32,106 nt of DNA from Promethearchaeota archaeon (GCA_019058015.1 JAHLWH010000075.1:1-32106), one strand, 5' to 3'. Shown: positions 1,873-8,316, counted from the first letter of the stretch. Program-made: numbers and translations. The notes: generated by a model from the letters alone, not told the origin.

Positions 1873-1932
1873 TTTTTACTTTCACTCTCCTCTCCCTATT
1901 TAAAGGAAGGATTCAATAAATTTACTGATTTA
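1873..1932 (+). repeat. Dispersed island repeat, copy 1 (box A 1873-1899, box B 1918-1932)
   Basis: tttttactttcactctcctctccctat matches copy 3 at 25/27; downstream aaatttactgattta resembles box B. Confidence 0.7.
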
Positions 1933-2018
1933 CAAAGTTTTAAAAACTCCTGAATTTATTTATCTACTAAATTATGGCCCTTAACATAAATAAATATATG
2001 TTAGATAATATAAGAGGA

Positions 2019-2443
2019 TTGAAAAAAGAATACAAATTTTAGATCTTTTTTGTGGTTGTGGAGGCTTTAGTTTAGGTTTTGAGCAGGCAGACTTTAAAGT
2101 TAAATATGGCATTGATAATTGGGATGGAGTAAAAGAAACTTTTCAGTATAATCATCCAAATACTGAATTTATTTTAGGAAATATCAAAGACATAAACCCA
2201 AGAGATTTTAAAGATGTTGATATTATTATCGGAAGTCCTCCATGTCAAGAATTTAGTGTAGCAAATACTAATCCAAATATAGATAAAGGTATGAAATTAG
2301 TTATTGAATTCTTAAGATGGATAAAAATTATCCATCCAAAATATTGGATTATGGAAAATGTTCCATCATTAAAAAAATGGATAAAATTAAAAATTAAAAA
2401 TTTTGAAATCCCTAAAATTAAAGTTTTGAATTCAGCTAATTAA
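2019..2443 (+). pseudogene. Truncated C5 cytosine DNA methyltransferase (N-terminal half only)
   Basis: Frame from 2036 reads ILDLFCGCGG (motif I), GSPPCQEFS (motif IV) and WIMENV (motif VI), then stops at TAA 2441-2443 after LNSAN. The likely TTG start at 2019 (after GAGGA) is one base out of frame. The target recognition domain and motifs IX-X are absent. Missed by the ORF track. Confidence 0.9.
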
Positions 2444-2529
2444 TAAGACAACCTTTTGATGACACAGAAACAACTTTTTAATACCATTAACAACTTTTTT
2501 TTACCATTATTTTTCCAAAAAAAATTCTT

Positions 2530-3279
2530 TTAGTCATCAAAATATCTTCCATTATATTGATAAATAGGGTATGGTTTTGTTTTATCCATTTCAGACTGAC
2601 CACTGAAAGTAGTTATTCTATGGTATTTGTATGTACCATCTTTAAATTTTCTTTCATTTAGAGGTATATTATAAAGAACATCATAACCCATACATATTGC
2701 TGTATTTTGACTATAATCAATATTTTTAGCAAATTGTTCTATATTTTTTGCATAATTAGCAGCATCACCAATAATTATGAGATGTGTGGTGACTCGTTTT
2801 CCTATTCTTTCAATTCTTATTTGTCCAAAATCGATACCTATTCTTAAATTCATTGTTCTATAATTGTTACTTTTATAAAGAGGATTAAGAATTTTATTTA
2901 ATATTTCTGAGATTTTAAGAGCACAATTTCTTGCATTTTGACACCTTTCAGCAGAAGATCCAAGTGAGAATGATACCATTGCACCATCTCCAGTATATTT
3001 ATCGACGAGACCATCATAATCATCGACACAATGAAAGAATAAATGTAGAGCAAGTCCAATCCATTCTGTAAACTTGAATTTTCCTAAGGAACTAGAAGCT
3101 TTTTTTGAATCCGCTATATCGAATACCAAAACTGCCGCTTTTACTGCTCTAATGCCTCCAAGGGGTAATTCACTAGTGTCTTTTGGAACTTTTCGACCAT
3201 CAGACTCTGGATGCTTATCCCTACTAGCTTGGAATTGCTTTAATATAGTTTCATAATGATTTAAATTCAATCCTATCAC
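2530..3279 (-). CDS. pycC: Class III nucleotide cyclase, Pycsar PycC-like
   Basis: VLVFDIADS, DKYTGDGAM, LRIGIDFG and GDAANYA class III motifs. Soluble single-domain protein directly downstream of a Pycsar-type TM effector. Confidence 0.8.
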   Translation of the reverse strand: MIGLNLNHYETILKQFQASRDKHPESDGRKVPKDTSELPLGGIRAVKAAVLVFDIADSKKASSSLGKFKFTEWIGLALHLFFHCVDDYDGLVDKYTGDGAMVSFSLGSSAERCQNARNCALKISEILNKILNPLYKSNNYRTMNLRIGIDFGQIRIERIGKRVTTHLIIIGDAANYAKNIEQFAKNIDYSQNTAICMGYDVLYNIPLNERKFKDGTYKYHRITTFSGQSEMDKTKPYPIYQYNGRYFDD

Positions 3280-3292
3280 AATTTTTTGTAGA

Positions 3293-3835
3293 TTAGGTTG
3301 TAAAAGTTAAGCAACTGAATAGTAAAATGTATCTAAAAATCAAAAAAAGAACACTAATTAATAAGAATATGAGAGCGTTTCTAAACATCTTATATTTTTT
3401 TTCATTAATTTTTGCAATTGCGTAATTTTCTTTAATGTAATCTTCTAGTATTAACTTTTCATTTAGATTTTTAATAAAGCCCTCATATTTTTTTAATTCT
3501 TCTTTAATAATATTGGCAAAGAATATTGAATCTCCATATTCTTCTTTAGTCCTAGCAACTATGACTAATATTGCAAATATAAAAGTAATTGTTAATAATG
3601 CAACTGATAATAAAAAGGAAATATATAAAAAAACCATTAAATTTAAGAACTTTTCATTAGTAGAGATGAAGACATCCATTCCAAAGATTATAGGGATGAG
3701 AACAGATATAACACTAATAATTATACTCGCTTTACTATCAGCTAATTGGATTAAATCTTGGTTGTGGCTGAAAACTGTTTTTGTATAATCGGATATTTTG
3801 TTGAAGTCTTTAATTTTTTCCTCCATAATATTCAA
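3293..3835 (-). CDS. pycTM: Pycsar transmembrane effector (DUF5706/PycTM-like)
   Basis: IQLADSKASII, three hydrophobic helices, SIFFANI and YAIAKINEKKY match the ADxKA...FFxxI...IxxxKY pattern of this family; 13-bp gap to the cyclase. Confidence 0.8.
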   Translation of the reverse strand: MNIMEEKIKDFNKISDYTKTVFSHNQDLIQLADSKASIIISVISVLIPIIFGMDVFISTNEKFLNLMVFLYISFLLSVALLTITFIFAILVIVARTKEEYGDSIFFANIIKEELKKYEGFIKNLNEKLILEDYIKENYAIAKINEKKYKMFRNALIFLLISVLFLIFRYILLFSCLTFTT

Positions 3836-3853
3836 TTACCATTTCTATTAATT

Positions 3854-4086
3854 TCATAATTTAATATATTTTTATCCCTACTTTAATTAGATTTGTAATT
3901 AGATCAAGAAGTTTAATGCGTCGGTTTACACATAAATTTTCTAATTTTTGATAAAATTCTTTTTCTAAATGAAGAGTTATAGAACGATATTTAGTTGATT
4001 TTTTTATAATAGAATGTACAATTTCTTCAACAGATCTATTAGGTTCTTCTTTTATGTATTTAATTATTTCCTTAACACCCTCTTTT
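3854..4086 (-). pseudogene. Start-less ORF remnant ending in an RHH-like domain
   Basis: Open minus frame KEGVKEIIKYIKEEPNRSVEEIVHSIIKKSTKYRSITLHLEKEFYQKLENLCVNRRIKLLDLITNLIKVGIKYIKL*; strand-helix-helix pattern; no ATG/GTG/TTG start. Confidence 0.4.
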
Positions 4087-4161
4087 TAAAGTTATTTTTC
4101 TATAAAATTTATTATTTTAATTTTTTATCAAAATTATTTTAAGTAAGGAATATTTAAATAT

Positions 4162-4260
4162 TTGTTTTCTACTTTCAGTCTCCTCTCTCTGTTTCCTATA
4201 AATAGATTAGAGTGATTTCATTATACAAAATCTAGGTATTTAAAGAAATCTTCCGATTTA
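4162..4260 (+). repeat. Dispersed island repeat, copy 2 (core 4162-4214, box B 4246-4260)
   Basis: 47/53 identical to copy 4 without gaps; shares tatttaaag and aaatcttccgattta with the copy 1 tail. Confidence 0.85.
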
Positions 4261-4470
4261 CCAACAACACCAGAACGCGTCTTTTACAATCAATATACTC
4301 ATTACTTCTCAAATTTATAAATAGTTTATAGTTATTTTTCAAGTTCAATTAAATATAGATAGGCAAGCTTATTTTGAAATATAATTATTTATAATTTCAT
4401 CTTTATAAATTTAAATATTGAATTCACTATTATCTAATTATCTAATAGGATCTTAAAAAAGTGATTTAAA

Positions 4471-7081: not shown

Positions 7082-7139
7082 TTGATCGAAACAGAAAGTA
7101 AATAAAGAAACCAATTAAATTATATATTTTTTTCAATCC

Positions 7140-7158
7140 ACTTATCAACTCGATAAGT
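7140..7158. other. Inverted repeat ACTTATC-N5-GATAAGT downstream of the ParB operon
   Basis: Perfect 7-bp arms, extendable by tcc/gga with a bulge; function unknown. Confidence 0.45.
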
Positions 7159-7200
7159 AGGAATTAAAATAAATTCATAAAAAACTAATAATTCTTTTCT

Positions 7201-7276
7201 TTATTTTTTACTTTCACTCTCCCCTCTCTATCTCCTATAAATAGATTGGAGTGCGCAGATCTACTGAATTAGTAAA
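7201..7276 (+). repeat. Dispersed island repeat, copy 3
   Basis: 67/76 identical to copy 4, ungapped, exactly 1040 bp apart. Confidence 0.95.
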
Positions 7277-7320
7277 TCTAAAATTAAAGAATCAAATTAA
7301 TTATTTTTTTTATTTTTCAT

Positions 7321-7629
7321 CTATAGAAATCCTAAATTTCTAAGTTGTAATAAAAGTCCACCTGTTCGCATTCCATCTTGAGTTATTCTATGTGGATCGT
7401 TACTTTTGACTAACTCTATAAGATATAGATTTCTAAGTTTTTTCACTGCTTTTTTATAAAATGGTAATCTTTTTAAGATCTGAAGAAAAAAATAACGGTT
7501 TCTTTCACTTTTAGTCCAACGATAAATTTTTATCAACACTTCGACTTCATAAGGCTTAAATTGTTTTTTTATATCCTCAACAATATCCTTATAAATTTGT
7601 ATCTCATTATTATCGATAGTGTTGGGCAA
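7321..7629 (-). CDS. Small basic winged-helix-like protein
   Basis: KKAVKKLRNLYLIE...HRITQDG fits the wHTH recognition helix, wing and TxxG ending. Confidence 0.6.
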   Translation of the reverse strand: MPNTIDNNEIQIYKDIVEDIKKQFKPYEVEVLIKIYRWTKSERNRYFFLQILKRLPFYKKAVKKLRNLYLIELVKSNDPHRITQDGMRTGGLLLQLRNLGFL

Positions 7630-7639
7630 TATATGTCAC

Positions 7640-7951
7640 TTATCTCTTTTTGCTTTTTCTCTCTCTTTCCCTTAAAGCAAACTCCCCACAAGCCACAATC
7701 TTACCAATCTTTGTAAGATACATTTTCATTGGACTTTTAGAAATTAGTTCAATTCTATCTTGTTTGATTAAATCATCAAAAACCTCTTGTTTTTGAGGAT
7801 ATTTTGCTGTTAAAACTGCAGAGTCTTCTTCAAATGCTCGCTTTCTAAATAGGCTTATTAATATATTGCTTCTCTCATCTTTAGGGGACACTTCCCTATC
7901 AAATGATGTATCTTTTAAGAGATCTTCAACTTCTGCTTTATCTATATCCAT
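7640..7951 (-). CDS. Small winged-helix-like protein
   Basis: FDDLIKQDRIELI...MYLTKIG wHTH pattern; 10-bp gap to the next gene. Confidence 0.6.
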   Translation of the reverse strand: MDIDKAEVEDLLKDTSFDREVSPKDERSNILISLFRKRAFEEDSAVLTAKYPQKQEVFDDLIKQDRIELISKSPMKMYLTKIGKIVACGEFALRERERKSKKR

Positions 7952-8011
7952 TTCTTAACCACACAATCTTTTCAATATGTTTAATATACTTATCGTATCA
8001 CAAAATATAAA

Positions 8012-8023
8012 ATTTGCGCAAAT
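8012..8023. promoter_or_regulatory. Perfect 12-bp palindrome ATTTGCGCAAAT, candidate operator
   Basis: About 60 bp upstream of the 7951 start, within an AT-rich promoter-like zone. Confidence 0.35.
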
Positions 8024-8240
8024 ATATTATTACTAGATTCATTTTTAAACCTAACTAAAAAAACTACTAGTCTTTTTTGGAATAAAACTCATAGAGATTA
8101 GAGGCTTCTTCTATTTACCATATTGCGCGGTTTTCACTACAAATGCGCCAAATTATTCATCTTTCGCGCGACAGGTCTAGATTGTTCTAGAACAACAATT
8201 TTGTAAAACAATTTTGATTTCAACGACAAAATTTTCATAC

Positions 8241-8316
8241 TTGTTTTTTACTTCCACTCTCCCCTCTCAGTGTCCTATAAATAGATTAGAGTGCGCGGAT
8301 TTACTGAATCAGTAAA
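8241..8316 (+). repeat. Dispersed island repeat, copy 4
   Basis: Contains CACTCT...AGAGTG arms and the perfect palindrome TTTACTGA-A-TCAGTAAA (8300-8316). Confidence 0.95.

What the first reader, a model, noticed from the sequence alone, without database searches (positions are those of the whole stretch)
1873..8316. Repeat-delimited gene-cassette array beside tRNA-Gly: candidate integron-like or tandem-accretion system
Seen: four same-orientation copies of a non-coding repeat (1873, 4162, 7201, 8241; consensus TTTTACTTTCACTCTCCCCTCTC..CCTATAAATAGATTRGAGTG). Copies 3/4 are 67/76 identical and copies 2/4 are 47/53. They separate functionally unrelated blocks of about 2.3, 3.0 and 1.0 kb (MTase + Pycsar; zinc ribbon + RHH-ParB-unknown; wHTH pair), and I see no copy in the 23 kb of core genes. 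The repeat keeps its orientation between tandem, divergent and convergent genes, which argues against a simple promoter or terminator. It does not have attC RYYYAAC/GTTRRRY ends and is not a tRNA fragment. Inference: a recombination site or conserved element end through which defence/accessory modules accumulate at this tRNA.
Basis: partly seen in the sequence, partly recalled or inferred. Interest (0 to 1): 0.88.

Follow-up and report, generated by a model that had tools for sequence, protein, structure and literature searches.

The report
Promoter-like repeats punctuating a tRNA island
Four copies of a short non-coding repeat mark the joints between unrelated gene blocks in a variable island next to a tRNA gene of an Asgard archaeon; they look like copies of one promoter at which the blocks get swapped, not like an integron.

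Summary
Four direct copies lie at 1865-1950, 4161-4214, 7194-7308 and 8234-8348. No shuffle gives a match, and there is no other copy in the 3.84-Mb genome.

Two congeneric genomes, two metagenome contigs and contigs from four other runs carry different gene blocks, with breakpoints at or inside the repeat. It is not an integron: there is no integrase on the contig, no attC-like ends and no dyad structure. It is not tRNA-based accretion either. In the relatives the whole island is bounded by a 14-nt copy of the tRNA 3' end, and the internal repeats are unrelated to that sequence.

The 5' half of the repeat is a low-copy motif found across the family. In 26 of 36 instances elsewhere it lies 51-187 nt upstream of a RadA/Rad51-paralog gene, next to a TATA-like box.

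Best reading (0.5): a promoter-type "module head" that also serves as the homology patch where island modules recombine. Dedicated site-specific recombination is not excluded (0.2). No transcription data were available.

The parts
1865..1950 (+). Repeat copy 1. It keeps the T-run and pyrimidine box, the TATA part is degenerate, and the TTTACTGATTTAC leader is retained. It heads the C5-MTase pseudogene.
   Evidence: an intact version occurs in metagenome contig L189
4161..4214 (+). Repeat copy 2, the short form that ends at GAGTG. It heads the block holding the zinc-ribbon membrane protein, RHH, ParB and p241 genes.
   Evidence: the orthologous copy in G016 carries a different left half
7194..7308 (+). 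Repeat copy 3, the long form. It holds the pyrimidine box, TCCTATAAATAG, a short leader with a hairpin, and a T8 run. No + strand gene follows it.
   Evidence: (D3, 119 nt)
8234..8348 (+). Repeat copy 4, the long form. It heads the 62-aa RHH-like gene next to the tRNA and is conserved in G019 and L186.
288..349 (+). Second repeat family (hairpin element D4), copy 1: T-run, a stem whose sequence varies, then GGAATTAAAA. It lies after a + strand ORF.
   Evidence: (D4)
1797..1858 (+). Hairpin element D4, copy 2, directly upstream of repeat copy 1.
7123..7184 (+). Hairpin element D4, copy 3, directly upstream of repeat copy 3.
370..1791 (+). 473-aa coiled-coil and Cys-rich protein that is specific to G000. 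It is absent from the G016 and G019 islands.
1974..2443 (+). C5 DNA-methyltransferase pseudogene. The FCGCGG, PPCQ and ENV motifs are present. There is a frameshift in an A-run near the start, and the gene is cut off after about 140 aa.
   Evidence: reading; ORF list
2530..3279 (-). Pycsar cyclase (PycC).
   Evidence: Pfam Guanylate_cyc; PADLOC PycC, E 2e-24
3293..3835 (-). Pycsar membrane effector (PycTM).
   Evidence: Pfam PycTM; PADLOC PycTM, E 6.5e-23
3861..4067 (-). Small RHH-like ORF without a canonical start codon.
   Evidence: weak RHH_4 match, E 0.009
4609..4842 (+). Zinc-ribbon membrane protein. It is shared with G016 (96% DNA identity) and G019.
4938..5102 (+). DUF7557 small protein.
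5095..6354 (+). ParB-like protein with a coiled-coil and CxxC tail.
   Evidence: Pfam ParB_N and HTH_ParB; PHROGs; relatives in G019, G098, G066 and G103
6356..7081 (+). p241, function unknown. It is a distant homolog of the 262-aa protein that precedes the repeat in G019.
   Evidence: the structure model has low confidence
7321..7951 (-). Two small genes (102 aa and 103 aa) with no family match. They form the 1040-bp block between copies 3 and 4.
   Evidence: a contig in run X7 skips exactly this block
8347..8535 (+). p62, a small RHH-like protein. It is conserved after the repeat in G019 and has a paralog on contig C117.
8685..8701 (+). CCCCCAAATGAACCCC, a candidate arm-type site just outside the tRNA 3' end. 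It is repeated beside the distal tRNA fragment in G019 and G016.
8710..8809 (-). Intron-bearing tRNA gene that serves as the integration site of the island.
   Evidence: Rfam, 42.1 bits; ARAGORN with introns; 14-nt 3' fragment at the far end of the island in G019 and G016

Best explanation
The four repeats are copies of one promoter-type 'module head'. Each holds a T-rich stretch, a conserved pyrimidine box (TTTTACTTTCACTCTCCYCTCTC) and a TATA-like box (TCCTATAAATAG) about 33 nt after the start of the pyrimidine box. The long copies add a short leader (GCGYGGAYTTACTGAWT...). The copies sit at the left edge of unrelated gene modules inside a mosaic accessory and defence island. That island is integrated at the 3' end of an intron-bearing tRNA gene. 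The repeats are the only sequence the modules share, so recombination between copies joins, deletes and re-sorts modules in the population. I think this recombination is most likely driven by homology or gene conversion.

Shown: the repeat exists and is restricted to this locus. Module content differs between strains, with breakpoints at or in the repeat. The outer ends of the island derive from the tRNA. The pyrimidine box is a family-wide element that lies upstream of host genes next to a TATA-like box.

Inferred: promoter activity, the identity of any factor that binds the box, and the recombination mechanism.
For: (1) Locus restriction: 4 matches in the window against 0 in 100 shuffles, and no other copy in the genome at E<1.

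(2) Family-wide motif: 77 of 134 other genomes of the family carry 1-2 matches to the 23-mer with up to 3 mismatches. The reversed control pattern gives 9 hits in 7 genomes. Only G000 has 4 matches.

(3) Position upstream of host genes: of 36 distinct instances outside the island, 26 have a Rad51/RadA-paralog gene starting 51-187 nt downstream on the same strand (Pfam PF08423, E 8e-17; PDB RadA). Two have a TFIIB-like gene. Two have an Orc1/Cdc6-like gene (only a weak match, 2qby_A, E 3e-4). Three had too little sequence downstream, and three had no ORF of at least 80 aa. The anchored consensus shows the box followed by CTTTTAAAAGAA.

(4) TATA-like boxes of the same kind lie about 27 nt upstream of this genome's tRNA genes (my reading).

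(5) In the window, 3 of 4 copies have a + strand gene downstream: the MTase ATG at 1974, the zinc-ribbon gene and p62. The same holds for the copies in G019 (p62), G016 (zinc-ribbon gene), L186 (p62 remnant) and L189 (MTase).

(6) Module exchange at the repeat: window 8241-9854 matches G019 starting at the left edge of copy 4. Window 4170-4871 matches G016 starting at copy 2. L189 breaks inside the repeat. Run X7 has a contig joining 7260 to 8301, which skips exactly one 1040-nt unit, and another joining 4199 to 8291 (shorter side 89 nt). Run X3 joins 7173 to 1873 (side 61). Six of the 12 rows in table 5c touch a repeat, although the repeats cover only about 4% of the 9.9 kb laid.

(7) The same right flank carries different repeat versions in different strains. 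G000 copy 2 and the G016 copy are 87% alike inside the repeat and 95.7% alike in the flank. G000 copy 1 differs from the L189 copy in the same way. This is the pattern expected if copies recombine with one another.

(8) The extents of the copies vary on both sides, and the longest exact identity between copies is 9-21 nt. Both fit homology-driven exchange better than a fixed core site.
Against: No transcription data exist: no RNA run was listed. Copy 3 has no + strand gene downstream. Distances from the repeat to the start codons vary from about 97 to 440 nt. The zinc-ribbon gene and p62 have their own TATA-like sequences closer to their starts (my reading). All four copies point the same way even though the genes between them run in both directions. 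An ordinary promoter would not be expected to be confined to one island of the genome. In this genus the host RadA-paralog gene carries only a decayed version of the box. The copies are only 77-89% alike, with short exact stretches, which is poor substrate for classical homologous recombination. The joints come from short contigs laid at 85% likeness in AT-rich DNA. The tool itself warns that such joints can be spurious, and only two of them have a stated side of at least 61 nt.
Confidence: 0.5

Rival explanations
1. The repeats are dedicated site-specific recombination (att-type) sites. A recombinase encoded in trans, or lost from this strain, inserts and excises small cassettes at the repeat. 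Cassettes then stack beside the tRNA, comparable to ICE/CIME accretion or a functional analogue of integron cassettes.
For: All copies are direct, restricted to this locus and in one orientation. The 1040-bp block is flanked by copies 3 and 4, and a contig in run X7 lacks exactly that unit and carries a hybrid repeat. G019 has a single copy where G000 has two. The G019 island encodes a tyrosine recombinase: both halves match Pfam PF00589, and it has one in-frame stop. The pyrimidine box is a homopyrimidine mirror repeat (my reading).
Against: No recombinase lies on the contig. The genome has only two PF00589 matches, both on other contigs, and no homolog of the G019 integrase. The G019 element is bounded by the tRNA-derived 14-mer, not by the repeat, and it has only one repeat copy. 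The repeat extents differ on both sides between copies. Cassette right ends at window 4871 and 8425 do not fall in a repeat. The core of the repeat is a single-copy promoter-region motif of host genes in 12 of 13 genera. No circular junction was seen in contigs.
Confidence: 0.2
2. Each long copy is a small RNA gene. A TATA box drives a transcript of about 50-55 nt with a 5' hairpin that ends at a T5-T8 run. This RNA would act as a regulatory or antisense RNA of the island.
For: Copies 3 and 4, and the copies in G019 and L186, keep similarity for about 55 nt past the TATA box, up to a T-run. Copy 3 keeps this segment although no gene follows it. A local hairpin such as TTTACTGAATCAGTAAA is predicted.
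Against: Fold z-scores on the + strand are not significant (-0.34, -1.13 and 0.08). The second half of the hairpin is not conserved between copies. There is no Rfam match even at E<=5. Copy 2 lacks the segment entirely. No RNA data were available.
Confidence: 0.1
3. The repeats are binding sites for a replication or partition protein of an integrated plasmid-like element. They would be either an ORB-like site bound by an Orc1/Cdc6 protein or a centromere for the ParB-like protein.
For: A ParB-like gene lies between copies 2 and 3. In 2 of 36 instances elsewhere the box lies directly upstream of an Orc1/Cdc6-like gene. Copy 4 holds a 17-nt palindrome.
Against: Related ParB-X modules in G098, G066 and G103 have no such motif within about 10 kb. 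The palindrome is not conserved between copies. The island has no Orc1/Cdc6 or Rep gene. The copies are kilobases apart rather than clustered around an AT-rich unwinding element. The resemblance to ORB is only my recollection of ORB sequences.
Confidence: 0.07

Closest known systems
Conserved boundary or linker sequences between modules of mosaic phage and plasmid genomes (modular exchange in lambdoid phages; recalled, no paper read here)
   Same: Short conserved intergenic sequences, often promoter regions, are the only homology between otherwise unrelated modules. They mark where modules are exchanged between relatives. The patterns match this.
   Different: Here the elements are four direct copies inside one small island integrated at a tRNA gene of an Asgard archaeon. 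The shared sequence also contains a motif that the host family uses upstream of a RadA-paralog gene.
Integron (intI, attI, attC cassette array)
   Same: An array of unrelated accessory genes is separated by a recurring non-coding element in one orientation.
   Different: There is no integron integrase or any tyrosine recombinase on the contig. There are no attC core sites or imperfect-palindrome structure. The genes run in both orientations and the repeat itself looks like a promoter.
tRNA-targeting integrative elements and their tandem accretion (ICE/CIME arrays, recalled; Asgard elements integrated at tRNA genes, PMC8813620, passages read)
   Same: The island as a whole lies at a tRNA 3' end. 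In G019 and G016 it is bounded distally by a 14-nt direct copy of that end, and G019 has a tyrosine recombinase.
   Different: In accretion arrays the internal repeats are copies of the same att site. Here the internal repeats are unrelated to the tRNA and vary in extent.
DNA-damage-responsive promoter element (DDRE, 5'-ANTTTC-3') bound by Orc1-2 in Sulfolobus islandicus (PMC6061795, passages read; supplements not seen)
   Same: Both are short elements just upstream of BRE/TATA in a small set of promoters. The Sulfolobus regulon includes a TFB paralog, orc1-2 itself and recombination genes. The motif here contains ACTTTC and precedes RadA-paralog, TFIIB-like and Orc1/Cdc6-like genes.
   Different: The hexamer carries very little information, and the rest of the 20-bp Sulfolobus consensus does not match. 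The organisms are far apart. No binding or induction data exist for Asgard archaea. This is an analogy only.
Element-specific promoters repeated along small phage genomes, such as the T7-type promoters (recalled)
   Same: Several near-identical promoter copies in one orientation head successive transcription units of one mobile element.
   Different: There is no element-encoded RNA polymerase here. The copies are more divergent (77-89%), and one of them has no gene behind it.

Membership tests
Integron | An IntI-type tyrosine recombinase gene lies adjacent to the array (with attI and Pc) | tested here: not met
   PF00589 matches in the genome fall only on contigs C188 and C150, with none on C67. 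Pfam scans of the island ORFs show no recombinase.
Integron | attC sites are imperfect palindromes with RYYYAAC / GTTRRRY core sites | tested here: not met
   Neither core motif occurs in or beside any of the 4 copies. Fold z-scores are not significant for 5 of the 6 strands tested.
Integron | Cassettes are mostly promoterless and co-oriented | tested here: not met
   Genes between the repeats run on both strands, and the repeat carries a TATA-like box.
tRNA-site integrative element / tandem accretion array | The element is bounded by direct repeats derived from the tRNA 3' end | tested here: met
   This is met for the island as a whole in the relatives. TGCGCCCGCCGGGA lies at L050 2310-2323 and in G016, in direct orientation with the tRNA. 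The far end of the island is not assembled in G000.
tRNA-site integrative element / tandem accretion array | Internal repeats between stacked elements are copies of the same att site | tested here: not met
   No 8-mer of the tRNA 3' end occurs in window 1-8700. The internal repeat is a different sequence.
tRNA-site integrative element / tandem accretion array | An integrase gene lies in the element | tested here: inconclusive
   An integrase is present, with one in-frame stop, in the G019 island. None is present in the window. The window starts inside the island, so a gene further left cannot be excluded.
MITE / REP-type dispersed repeat | Many copies are scattered over the genome, with terminal inverted repeats | tested here: not met
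   There are only the 4 copies on one contig, and the next nhmmer hit has E=1. No terminal inverted repeats were seen.
Archaeal BRE/TATA promoter with upstream regulatory box | A TATA-like box lies at a fixed distance from the conserved box, and a same-strand gene lies downstream | tested here: met
   The box is followed by a TATA-like sequence in the window copies and in the family consensus. A same-strand gene lies downstream in 3 of 4 window copies and in 30 of 36 instances elsewhere.
Archaeal BRE/TATA promoter with upstream regulatory box | Transcription starts about 25 nt downstream of the TATA box | not testable with these tools
   No RNA run was listed as holding this DNA.
Sulfolobus-type DDRE (Orc1-2 element) | An ANTTTC hexamer lies upstream of the TATA box, with Orc1-2 binding and damage induction | not testable with these tools
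   An ACTTTC hexamer is present (sequence), but that carries little information. Binding and induction need experiments. The feature is defined in PMC6061795.

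The most novel reading that the evidence does not exclude
The repeat is a combined promoter and recombination site. Through it an Asgard integrative-element family would insert, excise and re-sort promoter-led defence and accessory cassettes beside a tRNA gene. That would make it a functional analogue of integron cassette capture, built from unrelated parts, and possibly wired to a host RadA/Orc1/TFB (DNA-damage or cell-cycle) regulon by way of the shared pyrimidine box.
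Probability: 0.15. Interest if true: 0.8.

Novelty: new variant of a known kind. Interest (0 to 1): 0.45.

Why it matters
Very little is known about how Asgard archaea acquire and shuffle defence genes, or about their promoters and regulons. This locus offers three things.

First, it is a concrete and testable case of module exchange at a defined junction of about 55-120 bp inside a tRNA-integrated island. The island carries Pycsar, a methyltransferase remnant and a ParB-type module.

Second, it provides a conserved cis-element of a whole Promethearchaeota family. The element lies upstream of RadA-paralog, TFIIB-like and Orc1/Cdc6-like genes, and it could give a first handle on a DNA-damage or cell-cycle regulon in the closest archaeal relatives of eukaryotes.

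Third, it hints that a mobile island uses the same element as the host.

If the repeats prove to be plain promoters with occasional homologous exchange, the finding is a tidy but ordinary example of mosaic island evolution.

Tried and rejected
Structured RNA: RNA folds of three copies on both strands gave no significant z-score except the minus strand of copy 3 (-2.7). Rfam gave nothing at the repeats, either at gathering threshold or at E<=5. I rejected a structured RNA.

Virus origin: two scans of IMG/VR with repeat patterns gave 11 chance-like hits and then 0 hits. Nothing was usable.

Genome-contig scan: my pattern was too degenerate. Only a few 'Promethearchaeota archaeon' loci were of use.

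Expression: no RNA holder was listed.

Far end of the G000 island: the tRNA fragment and the amidase flank seen in G016 and G019 are not in the G000 assembly. The contig starts inside the island.

Empty site: G017 and G018 have only matches of 26-30 nt to the tRNA 3' part, which belong to other tRNAs, and no match to the pfkB flank. No empty-site comparison was possible.

ParB-X modules in other genera (G098, G066, G103) showed no motif, integrase homolog or ARAGORN tRNA within the fetched stretches. ARAGORN misses intron-bearing tRNAs, so the tRNA result is weak.

p241: there are only 5 representatives in 1.84 billion proteins and 2 in the word-indexed search. The Atlas hits were under 0.9. 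The AlphaFold model had a mean pLDDT of 45.9, so I ran no fold search. Its function stays unknown.

ORB idea: it rests only on my recollection of ORB sequences. A literature search for 'origin recognition box' plus 'Asgard' gave 3 unrelated papers. A search for Lokiarchaeal promoter and TSS papers gave nothing usable.

The supplements of PMC6061795 (motif figure and tables) could not be seen.

Full report
THE OBSERVATION. The window is a complete 32,106-nt contig (C67) of a 3.84-Mb, 29%-GC assembly that is 94% complete. Its right-hand 23 kb carries housekeeping genes and an ESCRT cluster of Snf7, Vps4, ESCRT-II and EAP30 genes. Titled relatives are 'Promethearchaeota archaeon' MAGs. The 23-mer TTTTACTTTCACTCTCCYCTCTC with up to 3 mismatches matches at 1874, 4167, 7206 and 8246, all on the + strand, against 0 matches in 100 shuffles. 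Copies 3 and 4 remain alike over 119 nt (92/119). A profile of the core finds no other copy in the genome, and the next hit has E=1. The tRNA at 8710-8809 on the minus strand bears an intron (Rfam). Its identity is unresolved: ARAGORN with introns calls Arg(TCT), and my own reading also allows Gly(GCC).

ANATOMY OF THE REPEAT. I aligned eight copies: four from the window, one each from G019 and G016, and two from metagenome contigs. The shared unit runs as follows. First comes a T-run, then ACTTTCACTCTCCCCTCTC, then 4-5 variable bases. Next come TCCTATAAATAGATTRGAGTG and, in the long copies, GCGYGGAYTTACTGAWT followed by about 30 more bases that end in a T5-T8 run. Copy 2 and its G016 ortholog stop at GAGTG. 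Copy 1 in the window has a decayed TATA part, whereas L189 shows it intact. L189 lacks the leftmost T-run and ACTTT. The extent of the unit therefore varies on both sides. There are no attC core motifs and no tRNA-derived 8-mers. The folds are not significant, and Rfam gives no match.

THE ISLAND AND ITS TRUE ENDS. Between the contig start and the tRNA lie these features, in order:
- a 473-aa protein specific to G000;
- copy 1;
- a frameshifted and truncated C5-MTase;
- a Pycsar pair (PycC and PycTM);
- a small RHH-like ORF;
- copy 2;
- a zinc-ribbon membrane protein, a DUF7557 protein, a ParB-like protein and p241;
- copy 3;
- two small minus-strand genes;
- copy 4;
- p62;
- the tRNA.

In the congeners G019 and G016 the orthologous tRNA and right flank are 94-97% identical to the window. 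In both, the far end of the variable region carries TGCGCCCGCCGGGA. That is a 14-nt direct copy of the tRNA 3' end. CCCCCTAAATGACCCCC follows it, and the same C-rich motif sits just outside the tRNA itself. This is the classical signature of an element integrated into a tRNA 3' end. The G019 island (about 8 kb) also encodes a tyrosine recombinase with one in-frame stop. The G016 island is about 2.9 kb. In G000 the far end is not assembled. No integrase lies on the contig, and the genome has no homolog of the G019 enzyme. Asgard elements integrated at tRNA genes have been described in print (PMC8813620, passages read).

MODULES DIFFER BETWEEN STRAINS, AND THE JOINTS LIE AT THE REPEAT. G019 has a single copy in its island. 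Its sequence is int, two small genes, the zinc-ribbon gene, ParB and p262, then the repeat, p62 and the tRNA. Homology to the window begins exactly at the left edge of copy 4 (8241 matches L050 9947). G016 also has a single copy, followed by the zinc-ribbon gene. Homology there begins at the left edge of copy 2 (position 4170) and ends at 4871, which is not in a repeat. Metagenome contig L186 has a copy-4-type repeat preceded by a weak TIR-like gene. It is followed by a p62 remnant and a DUF559 gene. L189 has the intact copy-1-type repeat in front of the MTase start.

I laid contigs of 4 of the 17 listed runs at 85% likeness. They gave these joints:
- 7260 to 8301, which is exactly one 1040-nt unit, so that strain lacks the block between copies 3 and 4;
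- 4199 to 8291, which joins the left of copy 2 to the right of copy 4 (shorter side 89 nt);
- 7173 to 1873, which places p241 and the hairpin directly before copy 1 (side 61);
- 4846 to 1865;
- 8384 to 7191;
- 2939 to 7284.

Six of the 12 rows in table 5c touch a repeat, although the repeats cover only about 4% of the stretch laid. These joints come from short contigs in AT-rich DNA, so they carry limited weight. One further pattern points the same way. Orthologous copies with the same right flank carry different repeat versions: 87% identity inside the repeat against 95.7% in the flank for copy 2 versus G016. That is the pattern expected if the copies recombine with one another.

WHAT THE REPEAT IS MADE OF. 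The pyrimidine box is not private to the island. In 77 of 134 other genomes of the family it occurs once or twice with up to 3 mismatches. The reversed control pattern gave 9 hits in 7 genomes. No genome other than G000 has more than two matches. I examined 36 distinct instances, drawn from the loci returned. The island copies of G000, G016 and G019 were left out by design. Of the 36, 26 lie 51-187 nt upstream of a same-strand Rad51/RadA-paralog gene. Two lie upstream of a TFIIB-like gene, and two upstream of an Orc1/Cdc6-like gene (weak match). Three had too little sequence downstream, and three had no ORF of at least 80 aa. The anchored consensus is TTTTACTTTyAmTCTCCTCTCTCTgTCtCcATgaAA, then about 10 nt, then cTTTTAAAaGaA. 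This places the box just upstream of a TATA-like sequence of the kind that sits about 27 nt before this genome's tRNA genes. In G000 the host RadA-paralog gene has only a decayed box. A second short motif, TTTTTGTCGR, often accompanies the box.

HOW IT MOST LIKELY WORKS. I read the repeat as a promoter-type module head: an upstream box for an unknown DNA-binding factor, a TATA box and a short leader. It precedes the MTase, the zinc-ribbon gene and p62. Copy 3 would be an orphan copy, left when the minus-strand block came to lie between two copies. Because these heads are the only homology between the modules, recombination between them deletes, adds and re-sorts modules. The varying extents of the copies and the short exact stretches of 9-21 nt fit homology-driven exchange or gene conversion better than a fixed crossover. 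They do not exclude a dedicated recombinase. Promoter activity is inferred and has not been shown.

A speculative extension concerns the DNA-damage response. In Sulfolobus the Orc1-2 protein activates damage-response promoters through an ANTTTC element upstream of BRE/TATA, and its regulon includes a TFB paralog and recombination genes (PMC6061795, passages read). The box here contains ACTTTC and precedes RadA-paralog, TFIIB-like and Orc1/Cdc6-like genes. An island wired to such a regulon would resemble damage-induced mobile elements. This is an analogy only.

COMPARISON AND VERDICT. The locus is not an integron: it fails on the integrase, the attC sites and the cassette orientation. It is not a MITE or REP element. 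It is not an accretion array of tRNA att sites either, although the island as a whole is a tRNA-integrated element. The closest known kind is the conserved boundary or promoter sequence at which modules of mosaic mobile elements are exchanged. Here that sequence occurs as four direct copies in an Asgard defence and accessory island, and it shares its core with a host regulon motif. I rate it as a new variant of a known kind, of moderate interest. The more novel reading, a combined promoter and recombination site for cassette capture, keeps about 15% probability. Long-read population data and TSS mapping can test it directly.

Noticed in passing
window 288-349, 1797-1858, 7123-7184; genome contig C117:51213-51272: A second repeat family: a T-run, a hairpin whose stem sequence differs between copies but still pairs, then GGAATTAAAAT. 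Each copy lies just after a + strand ORF. Two of the three window copies sit directly upstream of main-repeat copies 1 and 3. The only other copy in the genome is near the end of C117 (E 7e-8). It may be a terminator-like element or a further module boundary.
   Followed up: partly
genome contig C117:~51290-51868: About 65 nt after the C117 hairpin copy a GC-richer stretch begins with GTGCGAC and runs to the contig end. The start resembles the 5' end of a group II intron (my recollection; not tested with Rfam).
   Followed up: no
window 191-199 and 8345-8353; loci: The motif TTTTTGTCGR lies about 45 nt upstream of the pyrimidine box at most RadA-paralog loci. In the window it lies about 100 nt downstream of copy 4, just before p62, and it also follows the first ORF. 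It occurs 77 times in the genome, against 30-148 for three permuted controls. Its function is unknown.
   Followed up: partly
L050 (G019:C1) 2310-2359 and 10391-10416; G016:C145; window 8685-8701: The C-rich motif CCCCC(T)AAATGACCCCC lies next to both the distal tRNA fragment and the tRNA itself. This is the arrangement expected for arm-type integrase sites around an attP core.
   Followed up: partly
L050 6174-6905 (G019): A tyrosine recombinase gene with a single in-frame stop after residue 131. Both halves match Pfam Phage_integrase. It could be a pseudogene, a sequencing error or a read-through. This was not resolved.
   Followed up: partly
window 1974-2443: A C5 DNA-methyltransferase remnant. 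The reading frame shifts in an A-run about 55 nt after the ATG, and the gene is cut off after the ENV motif. The Pycsar pair lies convergent to it.
   Followed up: partly
window 4855-4885: Just after the zinc-ribbon gene the sequence TTTACTTTTTTTCCATACTCTATTTTTT resembles a decayed fifth copy of the pyrimidine box. The G000/G016 homology ends here, at 4871.
   Followed up: no
window 9854-13264 versus L050 11560-13369: The block holding the DUF2961 and MFS-transporter genes in the window has no BLAST match in G019. The corresponding interval in G019 is about 1.8 kb instead of 3.4 kb. This is a second indel, in the 'core' part right of the tRNA.
   Followed up: no
window 13711-17350: An Asgard-type ESCRT cluster: Snf7 (13711-14358, minus strand), Vps4 with an MIT domain (14504-15721), an ESCRT-II subunit (15751-16632) and EAP30/Vps36-like (16634-17350, minus strand).
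   Followed up: no
genome contig C117:7987-8136 and 13568-14632; G019:C13: Paralogs of p62 (50% identity) and of the ParB-like protein (about 35% identity) lie on contig C117. In G019 the orthologous ParB paralog lies about 1.6 kb from that genome's second copy of the pyrimidine box.
   Followed up: partly
L193 (G020:C83:12024-12152): A genome of another genus carries a copy that resembles the island type: the box, then CTATTTAAT, then TTTACTGATTT. The contig ends 128 nt later, so its context is unknown.
   Followed up: no
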